A program made the translations under genes and the position numbers. Under the pieces are notes generated by a model. That model saw nothing but the letters and a program-made list of their open reading frames with translations, was not told the origin of the DNA and searched no databases. Below, piece by piece: positions 7,117 to 61,665 of a stretch of 64,000 nt of DNA (its first letter is position 1; the number at the start of each line of letters is the position of its first letter). This DNA is from an uncultured Azospirillaceae bacterium (GTDB taxonomy: Bacteria > Pseudomonadota > Alphaproteobacteria > Rickettsiales > UBA3002): assembly GCA_964352815.1 (NCBI GenBank), contig CAYGTO010000005.1, positions 7,904 through 71,903 on the forward strand. Reading direction: 5' to 3'.

Positions 7117-7800
7117 ATGAGTTATTTCGTCGCAAATTGGAAAATGTATGGCAATCAGGCGCTTGTCTCGGAGTTGGCGCAAGCAATGCCGGAATCTAGC
7201 CGTTTTGACTCTATCGTCATTTGTCCACCCGCTCCATTACTGGACCGAGTAAATAGCGTTTTTTCATGCGAAATGGGCGGCCAGGATTGTTCGCCGTACG
7301 AACATGGTGCGTATACGGGTGATGTTTCGGCGCCCATGCTTAAGGACTTGGGTTGCAGCTATGTGATTCTTGGGCATTCAGAGCGCCGCCAGCACCACGG
7401 CGAGAAAGATGTGTTAGTCAAAGCGAAAGCGGAAGCAGCTATGAAGGCAGGGCTCACGCCTATTATTTGCGTGGGCGAGACATTAGCAGAGCGTGAAGGT
7501 GGTTTTGTTCTTGAGGTGCTCGAGAAACAAGTCGCAGCATCCATACCAGACTCGGGTGATTATCTCATCGCTTATGAGCCGGTTTGGGCGATTGGAACGG
7601 GCCATACACCCAGTCTCGAACAGATTGAAGCGGCACATGCACATATTAAACAGGTCAGCGGTGGGGCGGCGGTGCTCTATGGTGGCTCGGTGAAACCTGC
7701 GAATTTGGATGAAATTCTCACTGTACAAACCGTCGATGGTGTATTAGTAGGTAGCGCCAGTATTGATTCGGAGAGTTTCCGAAAAATGATTGAGAAATAA
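7117..7800 (+). CDS. tpiA: triose-phosphate isomerase
   Basis: 227 aa with the ANWKMYG, GHSERR and YEPVWAIGTG motifs. Confidence 0.95.
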   Translation: MSYFVANWKMYGNQALVSELAQAMPESSRFDSIVICPPAPLLDRVNSVFSCEMGGQDCSPYEHGAYTGDVSAPMLKDLGCSYVILGHSERRQHHGEKDVLVKAKAEAAMKAGLTPIICVGETLAEREGGFVLEVLEKQVAASIPDSGDYLIAYEPVWAIGTGHTPSLEQIEAAHAHIKQVSGGAAVLYGGSVKPANLDEILTVQTVDGVLVGSASIDSESFRKMIEK

Positions 7801-7806
7801 CGTTTC

Positions 7807-7890
7807 GTCATTCTCGACCGAGCCTAGCGAGTGTCGGGAATCTAATCGAGATAGATCCCCGAGACGAACAGCAGTTCGCTCGAGGATGAC
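7807..7890 (+). repeat. GTCAT...ATGAC nested-hairpin element (84 nt), upstream flank of secG
   Basis: gtcattctcgaccg...cgggaatc-taatcgagata-gatccccg...ctcgaggatgac. The termini and centre are inverted repeats. Same subfamily as 8396-8476. Confidence 0.85.
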
Positions 7891-7908
7891 GGCAACTAAG
7901 GTAAGAAC

Positions 7909-8368: not shown

Positions 8369-8395
8369 GATTTCATGAGAGATTTGCAAATATTC

Positions 8396-10142
<1,747 letters not shown>

Positions 10143-10335: not shown

Positions 10336-10352
10336 TTAGCAATTCCTTCGAT

Positions 10353-10452
10353 GTCATTGCCTGAATTTCCATTGAAATTCTAAGGCAATCCAGAAAAAGT
10401 TCGATTAATTACTGGATTAACCTAGAATCGCACGCGCGATTCGGGTAATGAC
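10353..10452. repeat. GTCAT...ATGAC nested-hairpin element (100 nt)
   Basis: gtcattgcct[gaatttc-catt-gaaattc]taaggcaatcc ... attaacc-ta[gaatcgc-acgc-gcgattc]gggtaatgac. Two tandem hairpins, each with a nested perfect 7-bp hairpin. Confidence 0.75.
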
Positions 10453-10469
10453 AATAGAAAAGGAAGAAT

Positions 10470-16515: not shown

Positions 16516-16530
16516 GAAAAATGAAGCAAC

Positions 16531-16621
16531 GTCATTTCGAGCGAGCGCATCAGCGCGACGAGAAATCTGTCGGCGTCATGTTGAGATTTCTCCGTCTGCT
16601 AAAGCAGCCGTTCGAAATGAC
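16531..16621. repeat. GTCAT...ATGAC nested-hairpin element (91 nt)
   Basis: gtcatttcgag...gagaaatc-tgtcggcgtcatgtt-gatttctc...cgaaatgac has a perfect 8-bp inner stem. It overlaps the 5' end of the following ORF. Confidence 0.8.
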
Positions 16622-17330
16622 GTATATTATTTTCGCGGGAATGACACTTTTAGTGTTCACTTCCATTGCCCATGCCGACGATGATCTCGTACGCAGTGTG
16701 AGCGTGGTGGGCGAAGCAAAAGAATCACTCACCCCAGACCGCGCAACCATTAGCAGCACGGTACAGGCAAAGAACCAAAACTTAGACGCCGCAAAGAAAG
16801 AGCATGATGCGAAGCTTCGCAGCCTTTTGGCTCTGGCGAAGAAATATGATGTTGATGACAAAGACCAGCGCACGGTATCAAGCCGGATTCATCCGGAATG
16901 GCGTTGGGAAAAAAACACGCAAGTCTTTAAGGGATACACCGTGTCGACCACGGTGAGTTTTACGCTGGAAGACATCAAAGATGTGGGCGCGTTTTTAGAA
17001 GATGTGGTCCGCACCAAGCCCCATCAGATGAACGGCCCGAATTATCACATGGATGACACGAAACCGATCCGCGATAAGGTGCGTGTGTCGGCGATGAAAG
17101 ATGCGTATGCGAAAGCGGAAGCGCTTGCGAAGCAGGCTGATTTGAAGGTGGGGAAGGCCATCAGTATTTCAGACCGCTACCAGTCACCGCGGCCAGCTAT
17201 TGTAAACCGCGGTATGATTCGCGCTGATTCGGTTTCGTTTTCGGCGATGGAATCCGCGCCTGTTACTCCCCCTGCCGGAGAGCAAGCGATTCACGCGCAT
17301 GTCTATGTCACTTATGAGTTAGAAGAATAG
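16578..17330 (+). CDS. SIMPL-domain (DUF541) periplasmic protein
   Basis: A signal peptide ending ...LLVFTSIAHA, then a SIMPL-like body (DRATISSTVQAKNQNLDAAKKEH...). The start is ambiguous: 16578 (MLRFLRLLK, inside the repeat), 16617 (the ATGAC terminus of the repeat) or 16641. The ORF track begins at 16512. Confidence 0.7.
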   Translation: MLRFLRLLKQPFEMTYIIFAGMTLLVFTSIAHADDDLVRSVSVVGEAKESLTPDRATISSTVQAKNQNLDAAKKEHDAKLRSLLALAKKYDVDDKDQRTVSSRIHPEWRWEKNTQVFKGYTVSTTVSFTLEDIKDVGAFLEDVVRTKPHQMNGPNYHMDDTKPIRDKVRVSAMKDAYAKAEALAKQADLKVGKAISISDRYQSPRPAIVNRGMIRADSVSFSAMESAPVTPPAGEQAIHAHVYVTYELEE

Positions 17331-53416: not shown

Positions 53417-55336
<1,920 letters not shown>

Positions 55337-55385
55337 TGAAAGTCGCTAGTTATTAGTCTCTAGTTGTTAGCGACTAACAGCGAGC

Positions 55386-55699
55386 GTCATTCTGAGTGAA
55401 GCGCAGCGCAACGCAACGAAGAATCTCCTTGCGTTTGACGCGATAGATCCTTCGCATTCGCTCAGGATGACGACGTCTCCCGTTCTGCGAGAAGCGAAGC
55501 GACGAAGCAGTCCATTAACATTGTGCATTACGCTTTGGATCGCGCTTGCCCGCTATAGCCTTGGCAAAGGCTGGTCGCCGGCACGATGTGCCTTCTCGCG
55601 AAACGGCATAATCTCGTCATCTCGAACACGGCGCAGCGTGAGCGAAGCAGTGGAGAGATCTTAGATTTCTCCATTCGCGGGGCTCCTGTTCGAAATGAC
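55386..55699 (+). repeat. mosaic of three repeat units (left flank of the RTX gene)
   Basis: unit1 55386-55471 (gtcattctgag...gctcaggatgac), unit2 55472-55615 (cgttctgcgagaagcgaagcgacgaagcagtcc...ccttctcgcgaaa) and unit3 55616-55699 (gtcatctcgaac...gttcgaaatgac). Confidence 0.8.
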
Positions 55700-55815
55700 G
55701 GCGCGAAGCCAGCAGGCGTAGCCCTTCAGTGCGCGGAAGCGCTTAGGCTTATCGTGAGCGCAGAAGCGCGAACGGGAGCGATCAAAAAAACTCTAACCCC
55801 CTGATTTTTCATTTT

Positions 55816-55833
55816 TTGTCATCAAATTGTCAC
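55816..55833 (+). promoter_or_regulatory. Pho-box-like direct repeat (putative PhoB site)
   Basis: TTGTCAT-CAAA-TTGTCAC. 19 of 22 positions are identical to the motif at 47119-47140. GATTCT lies 12 nt downstream. It is 158 nt upstream of ATG 55991. Confidence 0.35.
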
Positions 55834-55990
55834 ATTGTTTGAGGCGATTCTCAGATATACTGAAAGCTGGCTGCTTTTTTCATCATGACCGTTCGGATAC
55901 CCGCGTGGACCGAACCGATGGAGAAAGCTCCGATTCCTACCCGCAAGCGTGGTGCTTGTGTGGGGGATACAACTGTAGGAGACTACTGAG

Positions 55991-57052
55991 ATGAGTAACA
56001 CCATCATCGGTTCCGACGGAGGGGAAACCCTCAACGGAACCAACGGCGACGACGTCATCTTCGGCAACGGGGGCAATGATGTCCTCCGCGGCAACGAAGG
56101 TGATGACACCCTCTGGGGTGGGCTTGGCGTCGACACCCTCTTCGGAGGTGCCGGTGCCGACATTCTTGACGGTGGCTTCCAGACGGGAAGCACCGTTCAC
56201 GTCAACGAGTTCGACGTGGACGGCGACCTCCTGTGCGGGGTCGACCGGACGATCATCTATGTGATCAACGGTGTCGCCCACATGGCCGAGTTCGGTTTCG
56301 AAGACGCCAACGGCAATGGTGTTTGGCTTCTCGACGACGGTGACGGTGTCACCGACTTCGAGGCCCGCCTCGTGCGGGAAACGCCCGATCACGAGCTGTT
56401 CGGCGTTTTCGCCGTCGAGCAGCCGGTCGACCCCGACCCGGTGGAAACGCCGGGCACGGGCGGCGACCCGGACTTTATCGATATCGACATCATCGGCGAC
56501 GGTGATAACGACATCGATATCGACATCGACGGACCGGTGATCGACATCGACATCGACGGCCCCGTGGACGGGGACGTTGACATCGACATCGACATCGACA
56601 ATGGCGATGGGCACGATACGCCCTCTGGTGACGACGAGATCGATTCGCTGGAATCGGCCTGGGTCGAGCTCCTCTACGAGGCGGGTCTGAACCGTCCTGC
56701 GCAGGGCGCCGGCAAGGCGTTCTGGCTCGATGTCTTCGAAAGCTTCGAGGACGCCGAGGAAGGGTCCAACTTCCTCGCCTACCACTTCCTGTACTCTCTG
56801 GAGTTTCAGGAGAATGTGGGAGACGTGGAGACGATGGACTCGTTCCACTTCGTCGGTGCGCTCTACGAGAACGTCCTCGACCGCGAGGCCAAGGCCGGTG
56901 GCCTGGACTTCTGGGCCGGGGTCGATGAGCGTGGCGATTCGAGCGTAGAGACGCGGGTCGAGATCCTGGAGGCCTTCGCGGGAAGCCAGGAGAACATCGC
57001 TCAAGCCGACTTGGCTGGGGAGTATACCTCAGGCGACTTCATCTGGATCTGA
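55991..57052 (+). CDS. RTX (hemolysin-type calcium-binding) repeat protein with a DUF4214-like C-terminal region
   Basis: Five N-terminal nonapeptides (GTNGDDVIF GNGGNDVLR GNEGDDTLW GGLGVDTLF GGAGADILD), an acidic DIDIDID core and a C-terminal LLYEAGLNRPAQGAGKAFWLD...ALYENVLDREAKAGGLDFW segment like DUF4214. AGGAG SD. G+C-rich. Confidence 0.8.
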   Translation: MSNTIIGSDGGETLNGTNGDDVIFGNGGNDVLRGNEGDDTLWGGLGVDTLFGGAGADILDGGFQTGSTVHVNEFDVDGDLLCGVDRTIIYVINGVAHMAEFGFEDANGNGVWLLDDGDGVTDFEARLVRETPDHELFGVFAVEQPVDPDPVETPGTGGDPDFIDIDIIGDGDNDIDIDIDGPVIDIDIDGPVDGDVDIDIDIDNGDGHDTPSGDDEIDSLESAWVELLYEAGLNRPAQGAGKAFWLDVFESFEDAEEGSNFLAYHFLYSLEFQENVGDVETMDSFHFVGALYENVLDREAKAGGLDFWAGVDERGDSSVETRVEILEAFAGSQENIAQADLAGEYTSGDFIWI

Positions 57053-57134
57053 GAAGCGGAACACCGCGACAGGCTAGAGACGTCGAGCCACTGAAGCATC
57101 CCCTCCTTCGGGAGGGGGCGCTTCAAACACTCAA

Positions 57135-57176
57135 GGGGGTGAGGGCCGCAAGGTTCTCCCCCCTCTTTCTTTTGTG
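57135..57176 (+). terminator. putative intrinsic terminator after the RTX gene
   Basis: An imperfect GC stem (gggggtgag...tctccccc) followed by tctttcttttgtg. It is preceded by a stable cccctcc-ttcg-ggagggg hairpin at 57100-57117. Confidence 0.4.
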
Positions 57177-57185
57177 TGGCACTAT

Positions 57186-57469
57186 GGATCCTTCGCATGC
57201 GCTCAGGATGACGATATCTTTCGTTCTGCGAGCGGACACGCAGTGTCAAGCGACGCAGTCCAGCAGAATCTAGCAACACGCTCTGGATCGCGCTTGCCCG
57301 CCGTAGCCTTGGCGAAGGCTGGTCGTCGATGCGTGGCATCTCCTCGCGAAATGTCTAGCATCGTCATTTCGAACGACCGCGCAGCGGGAGGAGAGCCGAA
57401 GCGAAGCTAAATCTCATGATATTGCCCGAGATCCTCACATCGTTCGTTTCACTCGCTCCTCAGGATGAC
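57186..57469 (+). repeat. mosaic of repeat units (right flank of the RTX gene), same order and orientation as 55386-55699
   Basis: 3' half of unit1 57186-57212 (ggatccttcgcatgcgctcaggatgac), unit2 57213-57362 (cgttctgcgag...tggatcgcgcttgcccgccgtagccttggcgaaggctggtcg...ctcctcgcgaaa) and unit3 57363-57469 (gtcatttcgaacg...cctcaggatgac). Confidence 0.8.
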
Positions 57470-57568
57470 GAGATGTGAATGGATCGCTTCGTTGCTCATG
57501 ACATTCGCGCCTCGCGAAATGGCACTTTATGCATTGACTCTAGGCCGCAAACCGTCAAGATTCCTCAC

Positions 57569-58555
57569 ATGCAGATTACTCCCTTCACCCCGCACCCTTA
57601 TGAAACCATCTCCCATCACGTATTCCCCAAGCCCATTGGCGAAGAGGTCTATGCGCAGTGGAACACAAAGCTCGCGCGGGAAGAAGCGCTAGTGACGGAG
57701 CGCATTGCCTATGAGGTGGGCGGTGTGCCCGTCTCGGGGGTGCGTGTGATGCCGGCTCTTGAACCGTCATTGCGAGGGAGCGCCAGCGACCGCGGCAATC
57801 TCCCTCAAGATGACGCCACGCCTCACGAGATTGCCACGCATCCTTCGGATGCTCGCAATGACGATGCTTCCTACCCCCTCATTATCTTCAACCGCGGTGG
57901 CAGTGGCAGCTATGGTATGATCACCACGCTGCAGATCGTCTATCTGCTACATCCGATGGCGAAATTCTGGGGCGGCGCGATTGTGCTGGGCAGTAATTAT
58001 CGCGGGAATGACACCGAGGCGGCGCTGGATGAGCGGCTCGATGAATTTGGCGGCGCGGATGTGGCCGATGTGCTCGCGCTGATCGAGGAAGGCAAGAAAA
58101 TGCCGCAGTGGGATGGGAAGAATATTTTTATGGCTGGCTGGTCGCGCGGCGGCATGATGGCGGCACTGGCGATGAAGCAGGGCGCCGAGCTTACGGCAGC
58201 GGCGGCGATTGGCGGGGCGTTTGATTTAAAGGATATGCTCGAAAAGCGCCCAGGCATGCGCGACACCTATGAGCGGCGGATTGGGATTACGAGCCAAGAA
58301 AAGCTGGAGCAGGATATGCGCGAGCGTTCCGCCATTCACTGGCCCGAGGCGATCAGCGCGCCGTTCCAGCTTCAGCATGGTGATGCGGATGAACAGGTGA
58401 GCGTGGAAGGCGCAAAGCTGCTTGCGGAGAAGTTAGAGGCGATTGGTGCGCCGCATGAGCTGATTCTGCATGCGGGCGGTGATCATTTCTTGAACCGTAA
58501 GCGTGAAGAGGTGCTTGCGCATATTGAGCGGTGGTTTAGAAACTATAAAACGTGA
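57569..58555 (+). CDS. alpha/beta hydrolase (S9 prolyl-oligopeptidase / dienelactone-hydrolase-like) carrying an in-frame repeat insertion
   Basis: Nucleophile elbow GWSRGG, with HGDADEQV and GGDHF near the C-terminus. I preferred start MQITPFTPHP (ATG 57569) over 57479, which lies just after the repeat mosaic. Confidence 0.75.
   Translation: MQITPFTPHPYETISHHVFPKPIGEEVYAQWNTKLAREEALVTERIAYEVGGVPVSGVRVMPALEPSLRGSASDRGNLPQDDATPHEIATHPSDARNDDASYPLIIFNRGGSGSYGMITTLQIVYLLHPMAKFWGGAIVLGSNYRGNDTEAALDERLDEFGGADVADVLALIEEGKKMPQWDGKNIFMAGWSRGGMMAALAMKQGAELTAAAAIGGAFDLKDMLEKRPGMRDTYERRIGITSQEKLEQDMRERSAIHWPEAISAPFQLQHGDADEQVSVEGAKLLAEKLEAIGAPHELILHAGGDHFLNRKREEVLAHIERWFRNYKT
57766..57862 (+). repeat. 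GTCAT...ATGAC element inside the hydrolase CDS, read through in frame
   Basis: gtcattgcgag...ctcgcaatgac (perfect 11-nt terminal inverted repeat), translated as PSLRGSASDRGNLPQDDATPHEIATHPSDARNDD immediately before the conserved YPLIIFNRGGSG strand. Confidence 0.75.
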
Positions 58556-58556
58556 T

Positions 58557-58659
58557 GTCATCCCCGCGACCCGAAGGGCGGCGCAAGCCAACGCGGGGAT
58601 CCAATTAAACAAACTGCGTTCTCTGGGATTCATTAGATTCCCGCTTTCGCGGGAATGAC
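58557..58659 (-). repeat. GTCAT...ATGAC nested-hairpin element (103 nt)
   Basis: gtcatccccgcg...cgcggggatcc ... gattcccgc-tttc-gcgggaatgac. It starts 2 nt after the hydrolase stop. Confidence 0.8.
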
Positions 58660-58667
58660 AATATTAT

Positions 58668-59099
58668 ATGAGTAAACAGCCTACCTTCCTCAATAAACCA
58701 ATGAAGCATATGACGCCCCAAGAATGGGAGTCGCTATGCGATGGTTGCGGGCTATGCTGTCAGATTCAGGTCGAATGCGGTGATTCGGGGGAGCGGGCGC
58801 TGACGAATGCGGCCTGCCGCTATCTGGATTTATGCACGCACCGCTGCAGCGATTATGAGAACCGTCAAAAGAATGTGCCCGATTGCGTCAAGGTGACGCC
58901 GCAGAATATTGCTGAGCTGGATTGGCTCCCTGGCACTTGCGCGTATCGGTTGGTCTATCAAGGCTTTGACCTGCCCGAATGGCATTATTTGATCTGCGGC
59001 GACCGGCAAGAAGTGCACCGCTCGGGCCCGTCGATGAAAGGCGAGCTGATCTCGGAAGATGACACCGACTTTGAAGGGGATGAGGGGCGGAATGTCTAA
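58668..59099 (+). CDS. ycgN: YcgN family cysteine-cluster protein (UPF0260)
   Basis: 143 aa with WESLCDGCGLCC and further conserved Cys residues (CRYLD..C..C). Confidence 0.8.
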   Translation: MSKQPTFLNKPMKHMTPQEWESLCDGCGLCCQIQVECGDSGERALTNAACRYLDLCTHRCSDYENRQKNVPDCVKVTPQNIAELDWLPGTCAYRLVYQGFDLPEWHYLICGDRQEVHRSGPSMKGELISEDDTDFEGDEGRNV

Positions 59100-59106
59100 T
59101 ACACTC

Positions 59107-59190
59107 GTCATTCTGTGGCGAGCATAGCGAGAGCACAGAATCTGATGGAAAGATCCTGTGCAGCCTGCTATCGCAGTCTCACAGGATGAC
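59107..59190 (+). repeat. GTCAT...ATGAC nested-hairpin element (84 nt)
   Basis: gtcattctgtg...cacagaatc-tgatggaaa-gatcctgtg...cacaggatgac. All four arms are variants of one 8-mer. Confidence 0.85.
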
Positions 59191-59206
59191 AATGAAAGGA
59201 AGTGAT

Positions 59207-59560
59207 ATGAAACTGCACGGAATCAAGAATTGTAACACGGTGAAAAAAGCGCTCGACTGGTGCGATACGCAGGGGCTGGCTTATGAATTCCATGACTACA
59301 AGAAGCAATCGCCCGATGAGGCGGTGCTTAAAAGCGCGATGGAGAAATGGGGCTGGGAAAAAGTGATCAACCGCGCCGGGATGACGTGGCGGAAGCTGAG
59401 TGATGATGAGAAAAATGCGGTGAATGATGATGCGTCTGCGATGGCGCTGGCGATGGAGAAACCGTCGGTGATTAAGCGGCCGATTGTGACGGATGACAAT
59501 GGCGCGCCGATGGTGATGGGCTTCAAAGACGCGGAGTATGAAGCGGTGCTTTCCTCTTAA
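59207..59560 (+). CDS. yffB: ArsC/Spx-family reductase-like protein (YffB type)
   Basis: MKLHGIKNCNTVKKALDWC N-terminus, with AAGGAAG SD before ATG 59207. The ORF-track ATG 59186 is the terminal ATGAC of the repeat. Confidence 0.75.
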   Translation: MKLHGIKNCNTVKKALDWCDTQGLAYEFHDYKKQSPDEAVLKSAMEKWGWEKVINRAGMTWRKLSDDEKNAVNDDASAMALAMEKPSVIKRPIVTDDNGAPMVMGFKDAEYEAVLSS

Positions 59561-59562
59561 CT

Positions 59563-59716
59563 GTCATCCTCGGGGCTTTTGTTAGTAGACAAAAGAGCCC
59601 GGGGATCCAGAATCAAAAGGTCAGGAGACCTTTTGATATTCACTGATGTCTACTGACATCAATGAACTAGATTGCCTGGATGCGCTCGCTTGCTACTTGC
59701 TTACCGTGGCAATGAC
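59563..59716 (-). repeat. compound 154-nt element, left inverted copy flanking nadA
   Basis: gtcatcctcgggg[cttttgt-tagtag-acaaaag]..ggggatccagaa[tcaaaaggtc-agga-gaccttttga]..[ttcactgatgtc-tact-gacatcaatgaa]..gattgcctgg...ccgtggcaatgac. Confidence 0.85.
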
Positions 59717-59808
59717 ACTAATCTTACATTCCCGTCATCAAATATTAATTGCGGAAACTTTTTTTCGCGTCATAATGTCAAATATAGTTAATATTCTGGC
59801 AAAGGTTA

Positions 59809-60813
59809 ATGACTGAGATTACGCCACAGTCGAACGATCGTTCAGCTATCACGCCTGCAATTCCACGTGATTTGGAAGGTGAGATTGATCGCCTGCGCAC
59901 GGAAATGAACGCAGTCATTTTGGCTCATTACTATCAAGAGGACGAGATTCAGGACATTGCCGACTTTGTGGGTGATTCGCTCGATCTCTCGCGTAAGGCG
60001 GCGGCGACGGATGCGGATGTGATCGTGTTTTGCGGTGTTAAATTCATGGCGGAAACCGCAAAAATTTTGAGCCCAGAGAAAACGGTGCTACTTCCGGATT
60101 TGAAGGCAGGGTGTTCGCTTGAAGATTCCTGCCAACCAGAGAAATTCAAAGCGTTTCGTGAGGCACACCCGGACCATCTCTCGCTGACCTACATCAATTG
60201 CTCGGCCGAGGTGAAAGCGCTATCGGATATTATTGTGACTTCGACGAATGCGGAACATATCATCAACCAAATTCCCGAAGACCAGCCAATTTTGTGGGCA
60301 CCGGATAAATTTCTCGGCGGCTATTTGGCGAAGAAAACGGGCCGTGAGATGCTCTTGTGGGACGGGACATGTATTGTGCATGAGCGTTTTTCTGAACAGG
60401 AATTAGTGAAACTTAAAACCCGCCATGCAGGCGCGCATGTAATTGCGCATCCGGAGTGCCCCGAAGCATTGCTGAATCATGCGAACCATATTGGTTCGAC
60501 CTCCTCCTTGCTGAAATTCACAGAAGAACGCCCGGGTGAAGAATTCATCGTGCTGACCGAGCCAGGGATTCTGCATCAGATGGAGCTGCGCTCGAAAGGC
60601 AGCACTTTTTATGATGTGCCCGGCGCGATGGATTCGGGCTGTGTGTCGTGTAATCATTGCCCTTATATGAAAATGAATACGATGGAAAAGCTCTATCTCT
60701 GTATGGATCAGCGCGCGCCAGAGCTCACGCTTTCTCCCGAGCTTATCACAGCGGCACATAAGCCACTTGCGAAGATGTTAGAGATGTCGCAAGATATCCC
60801 GATAAAGAAATAA
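59809..60813 (+). CDS. nadA: quinolinate synthase
   Basis: 334 aa with ILAHYYQ, VHERF and conserved Cys ligands (C..CxxC..). Confidence 0.93.
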
Positions 60814-60824
60814 CACATTATTTT

Positions 60825-60979
60825 GTCATTGCCACGGTAAGCGAGCAGATAGCGAGCGCATCCAGGCAATCCATTCCATTGATGTCAGGAGACATCAATG
60901 GAAATAAAAATGTCTTCTGACATTTTTATTCTGGATCCCCGGGATCTTTTGTCTTGCTGACAAAAGCCCCGAGGATGAC
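60825..60979 (+). repeat. compound 155-nt element, right inverted copy flanking nadA
   Basis: gtcattgccacgg...ccaggcaatcc..[ttccattgatgtc-agga-gacatcaatggaa]..[ataaaaatgtc-ttct-gacatttttat]..ggatccccggg..[cttttgt-cttgctg-acaaaag]ccccgaggatgac. Its architecture is the reverse complement of 59563-59716. Confidence 0.85.
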
Positions 60980-60996
60980 AGATTACGGAGGCATAT

Positions 60997-61665
60997 ATGC
61001 GCGTATTAATTATCATTCTTCTTCTCATTGGGGCGTGCGCCGGCGGGCTTTATTACTCATGGCAAGCAAAGACTGAAGCGTATCTCGGTTATATCAAATA
61101 TATGATTGAGAGCTATGAGATGAATATGCCAAAGGGCATGGAAGTAGTGACCGAGGGTTTTGCGATAGAGGGCTTCCCATTCGAGAATCGTGTGGTGATG
61201 TCTCATTCAAGTTTAGTGAGTGATGACGGGATTGAGCATTTAGAGATTCACAGCCACCGCATCGCGTTTACGCTTGAATCGGTAGGCAATTACACGCGTA
61301 CAAAAGTGGAGTGGCTTGAGCCGATTAAGGTGATTTATGGCCGCAACGGCAACCAGAACACATACCGCGTTAAGCAGGTTGAGCCAATGACGGCGTATTT
61401 AAAATATGGCAGCAAGCAGAACAATAAAACGCCGACCACGCTAGATACCATGCCGCCGCCTAATCGGGCTGGAGTGAAACTTCCAAAACCCTTCGTGCTC
61501 GAAGCAACATGCGGGGAGGTGAAAGAGACCATTGCCTTTCCCAAGCTACCAGAGATGAATACGGTGTTGTGGGTCGAAATTCCGACAAATCTATACAATT
61601 CATTGAGAATTTTTACGTACATGATTGATGAAGCCTTAAAGGGTAAAGGTAACTGCATAAAATAG
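60997..61665 (+). CDS. hypothetical membrane-anchored protein (possibly DUF2125-like)
   Basis: GGAGG SD, an N-terminal TM segment (VLIIILLLIGACAGGLYY) and an EGFPFENRVV segment reminiscent of DUF2125. The assignment is tentative. Confidence 0.5.
   Translation: MRVLIIILLLIGACAGGLYYSWQAKTEAYLGYIKYMIESYEMNMPKGMEVVTEGFAIEGFPFENRVVMSHSSLVSDDGIEHLEIHSHRIAFTLESVGNYTRTKVEWLEPIKVIYGRNGNQNTYRVKQVEPMTAYLKYGSKQNNKTPTTLDTMPPPNRAGVKLPKPFVLEATCGEVKETIAFPKLPEMNTVLWVEIPTNLYNSLRIFTYMIDEALKGKGNCIK

What the first reader, a model, noticed from the sequence alone, without database searches (positions are those of the whole stretch)
57766..57862. Palindromic element inserted in frame inside an alpha/beta-hydrolase gene (RPE-like behaviour)
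A copy of the repeat family with a perfect 11-nt terminal inverted repeat (gtcattgcgag...ctcgcaatgac) lies inside CDS 57569-58555. It contains no stop codon in the gene's frame and is translated as PSLRGSASDRGNLPQDDATPHEIATHPSDARNDD. The insert falls directly before the conserved beta-strand YPLIIFNRGGSG. The catalytic motifs downstream (GWSRGG, HGDADE, GGDHF) remain in frame. In-frame insertion of palindromic repeats into intact genes is established for Rickettsia palindromic elements. It would be notable for this unrelated-looking family.
Basis: partly seen in the sequence, partly recalled or inferred. Interest (0 to 1): 0.7.

Follow-up and report, generated by a model that had tools for sequence, protein, structure and literature searches.

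The report
Palindromic repeat translated inside hydrolase gene
A 97-base palindromic repeat of the widespread "CGTC-tagged REP" kind sits in frame inside an otherwise intact serine-hydrolase gene and adds a 32-residue floppy loop; the case is real, but this behaviour of such repeats is already documented.

Summary
Window 57766-57862 (palindrome 57765-57863) is a 97-99-nt element with perfect 11-12-nt inverted ends. It is read through without a stop inside the S9-type hydrolase CDS 57569-58555.

It is an insertion. 95 of 97 homologues have 13-19 residues where this protein has 47. The AlphaFold model places the extra residues in a disordered loop just before the beta-strand carrying YPLIIFNRGG. 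The Ser192/Asp274/His306 motifs are intact, and dN/dS against the two closest orthologues is about 0.15.

A sister orthologue (L001) has an insert at the same site with the same right junction but a different repeat on the left. The insertion is therefore probably old and has been tolerated.

The element is not an unrelated family. It is a head-to-head dimer of CGTC-tagged REPs (Di Nocera et al. 2013). That superfamily was reported to include Rickettsia RPE-4 and RPE-6, and in-frame intragenic dimers of 20-30 residues are already catalogued for it.

A covariance model built only from copies in other genomes scores it at 57 bits. I found a second in-frame copy inside uvrA of a gammaproteobacterial MAG.

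Verdict: real and well supported, but a new member of a known kind. Interest is low to moderate.

The parts
57765..57863 (.). Intragenic palindromic element: a head-to-head dimer of two CGTC-tagged REP units, GCGAG type. It is 97 nt from GTCAT to ATGAC and 99 nt including the C/G of the tags.
   Evidence: Sequence. Folds: RNA, z -4.66; DNA, -24.2 kcal/mol, z -3.15. CM R1 built from other genomes: 57.3 bits, E 2.5e-12.
57765..57802 (+). Left REP unit: tag CGTC, stem ATTGC(G)/(C)GCAAT enclosing a 20-nt structured loop, tail CTC.
   Evidence: Same modules as the family consensus CGTCATTGCGAG-[hairpin]-CGAAGCAATCC.
57803..57825 (.). Variable spacer between the two units (CCTCAAGATGACGCCACGCCTCA).
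   Evidence: Corresponds to the non-conserved central loop of alignment A4.
57826..57863 (-). Right REP unit, inverted: GAG ATTGC ... GCAAT GACG, with an internal hairpin CATCC-TTCG-GGATG.
   Evidence: DNA fold -7.9 kcal/mol, z -2.3. alignment.
57569..58555 (+). Host gene: a 328-aa single-domain alpha/beta hydrolase of the S9/esterase type. The annotated 358-aa call starts at 57479, but homologues start at the Met of 57569.
   Evidence: Pfam Peptidase_S9 3.5e-17 and DLH 3.6e-09. 563 homologues. Foldseek hits to S9 catalytic domains. AF2 mean pLDDT 90.5.
57767..57862 (+). The 32 codons (residues 67-98, SLRGSASDRGNLPQDDATPHEIATHPSDARND) that homologues lack.
   Evidence: this loop segment is 47 aa here and 13-19 aa in 95 of 97 homologues. 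pLDDT about 47-52 with no secondary structure.
58142..58144 (+). Ser192 codon, the nucleophile in GWSRGG.
   Evidence: Invariant column S192 in the 97-sequence alignment.
58388..58390 (+). Asp274 codon (HGDAD motif).
   Evidence: Invariant column D274.
58484..58486 (+). His306 codon (GGDHF motif).
   Evidence: Invariant column H306.
58556..58660 (.). Neighbouring intergenic CGTC-1-type head-to-head heterodimer, starting right after the hydrolase stop codon. It reads TGTC ATCCCCGCG...CGCGGGGAT CCA ... ATTCCCGC TTTC GCGGGAAT GACA.
   Evidence: The right unit has the canonical 8-bp stem and 4-nt loop described in PMC3733652.
57362..57470 (.). Related CGTC-type dimer upstream of the gene (CGTCATTTCGAAC...CTCAGGATGACG).
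16528..16624 (.). Closest other family member in the window (CGTCATTTCGAG...TTCGAAATGACG), intergenic.
   Evidence: CM R1: 30.2 bits, E 1.9e-05..
55383..55702 (.). Cluster of two further CGTC-type dimers (55383-55474 and 55613-55702) downstream of thiC.
   Evidence: CM hits of 20.5 and 22.9 bits.

Best explanation
A non-autonomous palindromic repeat landed inside the coding sequence of a single-domain S9-type serine hydrolase, at the loop that leads into core strand beta-3. The repeat is a head-to-head dimer of two CGTC-tagged REP units of a GCGAG/GCAATC sub-type.

The net addition is a multiple of three (96 nt) and the gene's frame through the element is stop-free. The gene therefore stayed open and now encodes a 32-residue hydrophilic, disordered loop. 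That loop lies on the side of the beta-sheet away from the catalytic Ser-Asp-His triad.

The insertion is neutral or nearly so. It has been carried for a long time: the orthologue in a related organism has an insert at the same site with the same right junction. The enzyme has stayed under purifying selection throughout.

Nothing indicates that the peptide itself is functional. It is a tolerated passenger, as already catalogued for intragenic CGTC and GTAG REPs and for Rickettsia RPEs.

**Shown:** it is an insertion; it belongs to the repeat family; the ORF and triad are intact; it sits in a disordered loop; the gene is under purifying selection; there is an orthologous insert.

**Inferred:**
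- The protein is made and active.
- The loop's position relative to the active site. This rests on the canonical alpha/beta-hydrolase topology, in which catalytic residues sit at the C-terminal ends of the strands and the beta2-beta3 connection enters at the N-terminal end.
- The transposition mechanism. It is probably single-strand and hairpin-dependent, without target duplication, by an enzyme that is not known.
For: 1. **Insertion.** In a 97-sequence alignment the segment is 47 aa here and 48 aa in P0002, against 13-19 aa (mode 15) in the other 95. The closest insert-free orthologue, P0003/L002, is 73% identical outside the gap.

2. **Repeat identity.**
   - Their alignment gives the modular consensus C-GTCATTGCGAG-[variable hairpin]-CGAAGCAATCC-[loop]-GGATTGCTTCG-[variable]-CTCGCAATGAC-G.
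   - There is covariation in the central stem extension.
   - A CM built from those copies scores the window element at 57.3 bits, E 2.5e-12.
   - The flanks carry C/T at -1 and G/A at +1, which is the CGTC/TGTC tag, and there is no target duplication.

3. **Known kind.** Di Nocera et al. 2013 define CGTC-tagged REPs. They are mostly head-to-head dimers, mostly in alpha-proteobacteria, and lack a dedicated transposase. The paper lists in-frame intragenic copies, many of them in uvrA/B/C, dnaE2 and polA.

4. **Gene intact and constrained.**
   - S192, D274 and H306 are invariant columns.
   - dN/dS outside the insert is 0.153 (window vs L001), 0.166 (window vs L002) and 0.143 (L001 vs L002), with dS about 1.2-1.3.

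5. **Loop location.** AF2 gives mean pLDDT 90.5, but 47-52 over residues about 63-101 with no secondary structure. The insert lies between strands 53-62 and 102-108.

6. **Age.**
   - L001 (thiC 90% identical and syntenic) has a 33-aa insert at the same site.
   - Its right end, GCTCGCAATGAC|GATGCTTC, is identical to the window's.
   - On the left it has a complete CGTC-1 dimer (SFPRRRES...DPRLRGDD) in place of the GCGAG left part.

7. **No special coding adaptation is needed.** 44% of frame-by-orientation combinations of 136 family copies are stop-free.

8. **Recurrence.** The same family sits in frame inside uvrA in L033, as a 29-aa insert between residues 595 and 598 of structure 2r6f.
Against: - There are no expression or activity data, so a recently disabled gene cannot be formally excluded. 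dN/dS averages over the whole divergence.
- Each REP unit has only a 5-6-bp stem and a 20-nt loop. The published CGTC families have 8-9-bp stems and 4-5-nt loops, so assignment to one of the four families is not possible. Figure 2 of the paper could not be read.
- The element is 97-99 nt but the net insert is 96 nt, so the exact junctions, or a 1-nt adjustment, are unresolved.
- The three orthologues are almost equidistant (dS 1.23-1.32, near saturation). Shared ancestry of the window and L001 inserts therefore rests on the identical right junction, not on a resolved tree.
- The -47 kcal/mol RNA hairpin inside the mRNA could affect translation or stability. This was not tested.
Confidence: 0.85

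Rival explanations
1. Two independent insertions at a hotspot. The window lineage and the L001 lineage were each hit separately at the same loop-coding site, so the window insert could be recent and its long-term tolerance unproven.
For: - The interiors of the two inserts are unrelated: GCGAG dimer versus CGTC-1 dimer.
- The three orthologues are about equidistant.
- Di Nocera et al. note different REPs at about the same site in the recB genes of two Xanthomonas species.
Against: - L001 retains a 27-nt remnant ending in GCTCGCAATGAC at exactly the same junction with GATGCTTC.TACCCCCT as the window. This is hard to obtain twice independently.
- The nested arrangement implies the GCGAG element was there first.
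Confidence: 0.12
2. The hydrolase is a pseudogene, or is on its way to becoming one. The open frame is a coincidence of a recent insertion.
For: - About 15% of random insertions of this family would keep a frame open: 44% are stop-free and one in three has a suitable length.
- There are no expression data.
Against: - The ORF is full length, with all 18 invariant and 33 nearly invariant columns of the family alignment preserved, including S192, D274 and H306.
- dN/dS is 0.15.
- The orthologue with an insert also keeps the frame at 33 codons.
- The AF2 core is predicted with high confidence.
Confidence: 0.05
3. The insert has been exapted. Either the peptide acts as a new surface loop, or the intra-mRNA hairpin acts as an RNase or translation control site, and it is maintained by selection.
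For: - Insert length is conserved between lineages, at 32 versus 33 codons.
- The hairpin is very stable, -47.4 kcal/mol as RNA.
- REPs and MITEs are known to modulate mRNA stability (PMC3733652).
Against: - The peptide sequence is not conserved between the two orthologues. dN/dS over the insert columns is about 0.9, and the left two-thirds derives from a different element.
- The loop is predicted to be disordered.
- 95 of 97 homologues function without it.
Confidence: 0.07
4. Assembly or binning artefact. A repeat was mis-joined into the gene in a metagenome-assembled genome.
For: The source appears to be a MAG-like contig, and repeats are common break or mis-join points.
Against: - An independent Logan assembly of run ERR3535002 is identical over 3252 nt spanning the gene.
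- An orthologue from a different sample (SRR26541455) has an insert at the same site.
- The frame and both flanks are colinear with homologues.
Confidence: 0.01

Closest known systems
CGTC-tagged REP superfamily, head-to-head dimers (Di Nocera, De Gregorio and Rocco 2013, BMC Genomics 14:522; PMC3733652)
   Same: - CGTC tag at both outer ends.
- The stem begins with A-T pairs and is followed by a 3-nt tail.
- Two inverted units are separated by a 20-100-nt spacer and can fold into one long hairpin.
- Copies are mostly intergenic and close to ORF ends.
- The host is an alpha-proteobacterium.
- No target duplication and no associated transposase.
- Occasional in-frame intragenic dimers encode 20-30 aa, including copies in uvrA.
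   Different: - The unit stem is only ATTGC/GCAAT (5-6 bp) around a 12-20-nt structured loop, not 8-9 bp with a 4-5-nt loop.
- The two units pair with each other more strongly than with themselves.
- No SLRG...ARND-type peptide appears in the paper's list of intragenic copies.
- The sub-type looks closest to CGTC-3. I inferred CGTC ATTGCCGGG..CCCGGCAAT CCA for CGTC-3 by back-translating their VIAGLDPAIH peptides.
- It is found here in more phyla than the five they reported.
Rickettsia palindromic elements RPE-6 and RPE-4 (Ogata et al. 2000), which are CGTC-1 and CGTC-4 according to PMC3733652
   Same: - Short CGTC-tagged palindromes translated in frame inside housekeeping genes.
- The L001 orthologue's insert, SFPRRRES...DPRLRGDD, is the same peptide type as the R. 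conorii CGTC-1 dimers SFPRKRES...DSRFRGND.
   Different: - The window element is not CGTC-1 or CGTC-4 in sequence.
- The host is not Rickettsia.
- Intragenic copies are rare here: 1 of about 12 elements in the window and 1 of 136 in other genomes. In R. conorii they number in the dozens.
Rickettsia RPE-1 (Ogata et al. 2000, 2002)
   Same: A palindromic element of about 100-150 nt inserted in frame, with insertion sites compatible with protein fold and function.
   Different: - No sequence relation was detected: the insert peptides have no hit in Pfam-A or NCBIfam even at E<=10.
- RPE-1 encodes a conserved peptide, whereas here the peptide is not conserved.
REPINs / BIMEs mobilised by RAYT (TnpA_REP) transposases
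   Same: - A doublet of inverted REP units forming a hairpin of about 100 nt.
- A terminal tetranucleotide tag.
- No target duplication.
   Different: - The tag is CGTC, not GTAG.
- No RAYT association is known for CGTC elements (PMC3733652).
- No conserved neighbouring gene was found among 120 loci.
Classical bacterial MITEs found intragenically (ERIC/IRU, Coxiella QMITE1, Anabaena MITEs; review PMC10969869)
   Same: Small non-autonomous palindromic elements that can create in-frame fusions.
   Different: - MITEs have target-site duplications and a cognate IS.
- Neither was seen here.

Membership tests
CGTC-tagged REP superfamily (PMC3733652) | Unpaired terminal tetranucleotide CGTC (variants TGTC, CCTC) at the outer end of each unit. 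| tested here: met
   57765-57768 is CGTC and 57860-57863 is GACG. In 136 family copies, position -1 is C in 93 and T in 36, and position +1 is G in 102 and A in 30.
CGTC-tagged REP superfamily (PMC3733652) | The stem starts with complementary A-T residues in the first and second positions. | tested here: met
   CGTC-ATTGC...GCAAT-CTC in both units.
CGTC-tagged REP superfamily (PMC3733652) | Unit stem of 8-9 bp and loop of 4-5 nt (families CGTC-1 to -4). | tested here: not met
   Each unit folds with a 5-6-bp outer stem around a structured loop of about 20 nt. The left unit alone is no more stable than shuffles (z +0.33). The paper notes atypical loops in Bradyrhizobium CGTC-1 and says it discarded repeats with unusual loops. 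The element is therefore filed in the superfamily, not in one of the four families.
CGTC-tagged REP superfamily (PMC3733652) | Short unpaired 3-nt tail, mostly CCA. | tested here: inconclusive
   The window copy has CTC. Among family copies GCAAT is followed by CCA in 57 and CTC in 19.
CGTC-tagged REP superfamily (PMC3733652) | Predominantly head-to-head dimers (tags outside) with a 20-100-bp spacer, able to fold into one large hairpin. | tested here: met
   Tags are outermost, with a 23-nt spacer. Whole-element fold is -24.2 kcal/mol as DNA (z -3.15) and -47.4 kcal/mol as RNA (z -4.66).
CGTC-tagged REP superfamily (PMC3733652) | Multicopy, mostly intergenic and close to ORF ends; no dedicated transposase next to the copies. 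| tested here: met
   - About 12 CGTC-type elements in 64 kb, 11 of them intergenic. For example, 7807-7890 fills a convergent gap and 58556-58660 starts 1 nt after a stop codon.
- No recurrent neighbouring ORF family in 120 loci.
- The whole source genome was not available.
Rickettsia palindromic elements (RPE-1 to RPE-10) | Sequence or peptide similarity to an RPE family consensus. | tested here: not met
   - The insert peptides of the window and of P0002 have no Pfam-A or NCBIfam hit even at E<=10. I did not verify which RPE models those libraries hold.
- The relation to RPE-6 and RPE-4 is only at superfamily level, on the authority of PMC3733652.
Rickettsia palindromic elements (RPE-1 to RPE-10) | In-frame insertion in genes that remain functional. 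| tested here: met
   Open frame, conserved triad, dN/dS 0.15, loop location. Function itself was not assayed.
Rickettsia palindromic elements (RPE-1 to RPE-10) | The host is a Rickettsia. | tested here: not met
   The window has 49.8% G+C. The named ThiC relatives, at 74-77% identity, are 'Alphaproteobacteria bacterium' and 'Rickettsiales bacterium' MAGs. The organism was not identified further.
Classical MITE | Terminal inverted repeats plus a target-site duplication. | tested here: not met
   TIRs are present, but there are no direct repeats flanking 136 copies. Matches of length 1-8 occur at or below chance, and the flanks are instead mutually complementary (YY...RR).
REPIN/RAYT system | GTAG tag and a linked RAYT (Y1 HUH transposase) gene. 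| tested here: not met
   The tag is CGTC. No conserved adjacent ORF was found. A genome-wide RAYT search was not possible.
Peptidase S9 / alpha-beta hydrolase (host gene) | Pfam domain match above the gathering score and a Ser-Asp-His triad in the conserved motifs. | tested here: met
   PF00326 scores 63 bits against a cut-off of 22.6. S192, D274 and H306 are invariant in 97 sequences. Foldseek hits to S9 catalytic domains at E about 1e-14.

The most novel reading that the evidence does not exclude
The GCGAG/GCAATC element may be an uncatalogued fifth family of CGTC-tagged REPs. Its 11-nt ends and GCAATC core would be conserved from alpha-proteobacteria to Bacteroidota, Chloroflexota, Desulfobacterota, Planctomycetota and Patescibacteria.

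The hydrolase locus would then record REP-on-REP turnover. In the sister lineage a CGTC-1 dimer replaced the left two-thirds of the older element at the same intragenic site, while selection kept the frame (32 versus 33 codons).

That would imply that new CGTC elements insert at, or recombine with, existing CGTC tags or hairpins. It would give a concrete handle on the still unknown mobilisation mechanism of this transposase-less superfamily.
Probability: 0.25. Interest if true: 0.5.

Novelty: new member of a known kind. Interest (0 to 1): 0.27.

Why it matters
This is a clean, well-controlled example of how small palindromic repeats add disordered loops to enzymes without destroying them. An empty-site orthologue, a filled-site orthologue, a structural model and selection statistics are all available for the same locus.

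It also corrects a likely mis-annotation risk. The 358-aa gene call and the 'extra' 32 residues should be flagged as REP-derived.

It extends the CGTC-REP picture in three modest ways:
- a sub-type with long structured loops that earlier surveys probably filtered out;
- a much wider phylum range than reported;
- two different CGTC families occupying the same intragenic site in sister lineages.

It does not open a new kind of biology. Intragenic in-frame REPs and RPEs have been documented since 2000 and 2013.

Tried and rejected
1. **Rfam.** No family at gathering score in the whole window. Nothing overlaps the element at E<=10 in 55300-61100.

2. **Literature search by sequence strings.** I searched GTCATTGCGAG, CTCGCAATGAC, GGATTGCTTCG and others. 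The hits were only unrelated primers. The relevant paper was found by topic instead.

3. **GIY-YIG association.** I recalled that these elements accompany GIY-YIG nuclease genes. All ORFs within 400 nt of 136 copies were clustered. No recurrent protein family appeared other than translations of the element itself and chance housekeeping genes. The idea was dropped.

4. **Classical MITE with target-site duplication.** Rejected.

5. **RPE domain membership via Pfam and NCBIfam.** No hits.

6. **The 1.4-kb unit 59563-60979 with 20-nt TIRs as a possible autonomous partner.** It contains nadA, not a transposase. It is simply nadA bracketed by two inverted copies of a 157-nt REP dimer.

7. **REP-terminal ATG as a donated start codon** for downstream genes at 8472, 16616 and 59186. 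This is most likely an ORF-caller artefact. The ArsC-like gene starts at 59207 by homology-style reasoning (MKLHGIKNC).

8. **Most 'ORFs spanning the element' in GC-rich genomes** (Bradyrhizobium and others) are spurious stop-free stretches. Only L033 uvrA survived inspection.

9. **Source organism.** Exact cluster look-up gave no names. ThiC neighbours only say Alphaproteobacteria/Rickettsiales MAGs.
Full report
**1. The observation**

The sequence is as described. GTCATTGCGAG at 57766-57776 is matched by its exact reverse complement at 57852-57862. The palindrome extends by one more base on each side (C...G, 57765-57863).

The ORF that runs from 57479, or more plausibly from the Met at 57569, to 58555 reads through it without a stop. 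The translation is ...MPALEP-SLRGSASDRGNLPQDDATPHEIATHPSDARND-DASYPLIIFNRGGSG..., and GWSRGG, HGDADE and GGDHF follow in frame.

A perfect 11-nt inverted repeat at this spacing is not significant in 64 kb. Two loci were observed, against about 1.2 pairs in shuffles. The significance comes from two other results:
- The fold is -47.4 kcal/mol as RNA with z = -4.66, and -24.2 kcal/mol as DNA with z = -3.15.
- The element matches a model of the family built from other genomes (section 3).

An independent Logan assembly of run ERR3535002 is identical over 3252 nt, so this is not an assembly artefact.

**2. It is an insertion in a live-looking gene**

The host protein is a single-domain alpha/beta hydrolase.
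- Pfam Peptidase_S9 scores 3.5e-17 and DLH 3.6e-09.
- Foldseek's best matches are S9 peptidase catalytic domains at E about 1e-14.

Of 563 homologues found I aligned 96 with the window protein. The segment from 'MP' to 'IIF' is 47 residues here and 48 in P0002. It is 13-19 residues (mode 15) in the other 95. The window protein therefore carries 32 extra residues (67-98).

S192, D274 and H306 are invariant columns, and all other invariant positions are kept.

The AlphaFold2 model has mean pLDDT 90.5. Over residues about 63-101 pLDDT is only 47-52, with no secondary structure. This stretch lies between strand 53-62 and strand 102-108, which is the YPLIIFN strand. In the canonical alpha/beta-hydrolase fold the catalytic residues sit at the C-terminal ends of the strands. 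The connection entering the N-terminal end of this strand is therefore on the far side from the active site. This last point is inferred from established fold knowledge and was not measured.

**3. What the element is**

The hosts include:
- Bradyrhizobium, Sphingomonadales, Micavibrio and Rickettsiales (including a 'Candidatus Tisiphia' symbiont);
- Gammaproteobacteria;
- Mucilaginibacter, Pedobacter and Flavobacterium;
- Ignavibacteriota, Chloroflexota, Desulfobacterota, Planctomycetota and Zixibacteria;
- Margulisbacteria, Clostridia and several Patescibacteria.

The copies share a modular plan: C-GTCATTGCGAG-[variable small hairpin]-CGAAGCAATCC-[variable loop]-GGATTGCTTCG-[short or hairpin]-CTCGCAATGAC-G.
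- GCAATC and GATTGC are both present in 111 of 136 copies.
- The central stem extension covaries (CG/UA, AU/CG, GC/AU/UA/CG).
- The side hairpins keep their pairing while changing sequence.

The window copy has every module. A covariance model built only from 91 foreign copies scores it at 57.3 bits, E 2.5e-12. It also picks up weaker relatives in the window at 16528-16624, 10350-10455, 55613-55702 and 55383-55474.

Flanks of 136 copies show no target duplication. Position -1 is C or T and position +1 is G or A, so the true end is CGTC or TGTC.

No protein family recurs next to the copies. There is no Rfam match.

**4. Comparison with what is known**

The anatomy is that of the CGTC-tagged REPs of Di Nocera, De Gregorio and Rocco (2013, PMC3733652). 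That paper describes:
- a terminal CGTC tag (or TGTC/CCTC);
- a stem starting with A-T pairs and a 3-nt tail, mostly CCA;
- predominantly head-to-head dimers, with tags outside, separated by 20-100-bp spacers;
- mostly alpha-proteobacterial hosts, in five phyla overall;
- no dedicated transposase.

[quoted passage not shown] It also states that REPs occur inside genes in several species. More than half of those inserts are dimers or groups encoding 20-30 residues, and many lie in uvrA/B/C, dnaE2, polA and recB. Its Additional file 3 lists them.

The window also holds canonical CGTC-1 units. At 58556-58660 the right unit is ATTCCCGC-TTTC-GCGGGAAT-GACA, with an 8-bp stem and a 4-nt loop.

The intragenic element departs from the four published families in one defining respect. 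Each unit has only a 5-6-bp ATTGC/GCAAT stem around a structured loop of about 20 nt. I therefore file it in the superfamily, closest to CGTC-3 by my back-translation of their VIAGLDPAIH peptides, and not in a named family. The paper says repeats with unusual loops were discarded, which may be why this sub-type and its SLRG...ARND peptide are absent from their list.

The insert peptides match no Pfam or NCBIfam model, so it is not an RPE-1-type domain.

**5. History of the locus**

Two close orthologues exist.

L002 (P0003):
- 73% identical outside the gap;
- has the empty site...KELP|SEGVPLVFFNRGG.

L001 (P0002):
- has a thiC neighbour 90% identical to the window's thiC, which directly abuts the hydrolase;
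- has a 33-residue insert at the same place.

The L001 insert is 103 nt and has two parts:
- a complete 76-nt CGTC-1 head-to-head dimer, TGTC-ATTCCCGC-GTAG-GCGGGAAT...ATCCCCGC-CTGC-GCGGGGAT-GACA;
- a 27-nt remnant ending in GCTCGCAATGAC, joined to GATGCTTC.TACCCCCT exactly as in the window.

Its peptide SFPRRRES...DPRLRGDD is the same type as the R. conorii CGTC-1 dimers SFPRKRES...DSRFRGND.

The simplest history is an old GCGAG-type insertion shared by the window and L001 lineages. A CGTC-1 dimer later replaced its left part in L001, and the frame was preserved.

Outside the insert, dN/dS is 0.14-0.17 in all three comparisons, at dS about 1.2-1.3. Across the insert columns it is about 0.9. 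The enzyme is constrained and the passenger peptide is not.

The three sequences are almost equidistant, so shared ancestry rests on the junction and not on a tree.

**6. How unusual is an open frame?**

Among 136 copies, 44% of frame-by-orientation combinations are stop-free, against 30% after shuffling. Lengths are evenly spread modulo 3. Roughly one insertion in seven into a tolerant loop would therefore keep the gene open, and no coding adaptation needs to be invoked.

I screened the 136 foreign copies for long ORFs spanning the element. GC-rich spurious ORFs were set aside. This left one clear second case, at L033:2835-2921. The element sits inside uvrA of a gammaproteobacterial MAG and adds 29 residues between residues 595 and 598 of the Bacillus UvrA structure 2r6f.

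That fits the published observation that repair genes are recurrent hosts. It also shows that intragenic copies of this sub-type are rare (about 1%), unlike the situation in R. conorii.

**7. Mechanism and rivals**

Best explanation (confidence 0.85): a tolerated, old, in-frame insertion of a CGTC-type REP dimer into a surface-loop-coding position. It is translated as a disordered loop and has no function of its own.

Mobilisation is unknown. Three features are those of single-strand, hairpin-recognising HUH/Y1 systems such as RAYT/REPIN and IS200/IS605:
- the absence of a target duplication;
- the tetranucleotide tag;
- the hairpin architecture.

This is inference only, and the literature reports no dedicated enzyme.

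Rivals considered:
- independent hits at a hotspot (0.12);
- exaptation of the peptide or of the mRNA hairpin (0.07);
- pseudogene (0.05);
- assembly artefact (0.01).

**8. Verdict**

The novelty class is a new member of a known kind.

The modestly new points are:
- the long-loop GCGAG sub-type and its very wide distribution;
- the two-family turnover at one intragenic site.

The source organism is an uncultured alpha-proteobacterium. The window has 49.8% G+C, and named ThiC relatives at 74-77% identity are 'Alphaproteobacteria bacterium' and 'Rickettsiales bacterium' MAGs.

Noticed in passing
window 59562-59718 and 60823-60980 (flanking nadA 59809-60813): nadA (quinolinate synthase) is bracketed by two copies, in inverted orientation, of the same composite CGTC-type dimer of about 157 nt (TGTCATCCTCGGGGC...GGCAATGACA). 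The outer 25 nt are 96% complementary and the inner 131 nt are 87% complementary. It looks like a giant inverted repeat around a housekeeping gene, and there is no transposase inside.
   Followed up: partly
window 55337-57568, compared with L001:1598-1603: In L001, thiC and the hydrolase are 5 nt apart. In the window 2.2 kb lies between them. It consists of two REP clusters sharing direct repeats of about 180 nt (55428-55603 vs 57169-57351, 76-81% identical) around an RTX-like ORF 55991-57052 (HemolysinCabind + DUF4214). This suggests insertion or rearrangement mediated by REP clusters.
   Followed up: partly
L033:2835-2921 (- strand): The same GCGAG-type dimer is in frame inside uvrA of an uncultured gammaproteobacterium. 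It adds 29 residues (SVIASKAKQSHSTGSANNGIATSPLAPRN) between residues 595 and 598 of UvrA structure 2r6f.
   Followed up: yes
L001:1797-1899: The orthologous hydrolase has a composite insert: a complete 76-nt CGTC-1 dimer plus a 27-nt right-end remnant of the GCGAG-type element. Two REP families have occupied one intragenic site, with the frame kept at 33 codons.
   Followed up: yes
window 8472, 16616/16641, 59186: The ATG within the terminal ...ATGAC of several REPs is the first in-frame ATG of the downstream ORF. Mechanical ORF calls therefore start inside the repeat. For the ArsC/Spx-like gene the real start is almost certainly 59207 (MKLHGIKNC). This is an annotation hazard in REP-rich genomes, and the 358-aa call of the hydrolase from 57479 is probably also too long.
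   Followed up: partly
window 7806-7891, 8395-8477, 10350-10455, 59106-59191: Further CGTC-type dimers of 80-106 nt almost exactly fill intergenic gaps. For example, 7807-7890 lies between convergent ORFs ending at 7800 and 7896. This matches the published tendency of such REPs to abut ORF 3' ends.
   Followed up: partly
proteins P0133, P0162, P0226 (ThiC homologues): Some ThiC homologues are 745-792 aa, compared with about 630, and carry extra PF04480 and PF18741 (endonuclease-like) domains. This may be a different kind of insertion or fusion in the neighbouring gene family.
   Followed up: no
window 56389-56601 and 55991-57052: The RTX-like ORF contains GAYATCGAY-rich repeats encoding DIDIDID runs. 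The opposite strand carries an almost equally long ORF (55937-57004), which is probably spurious.
   Followed up: no
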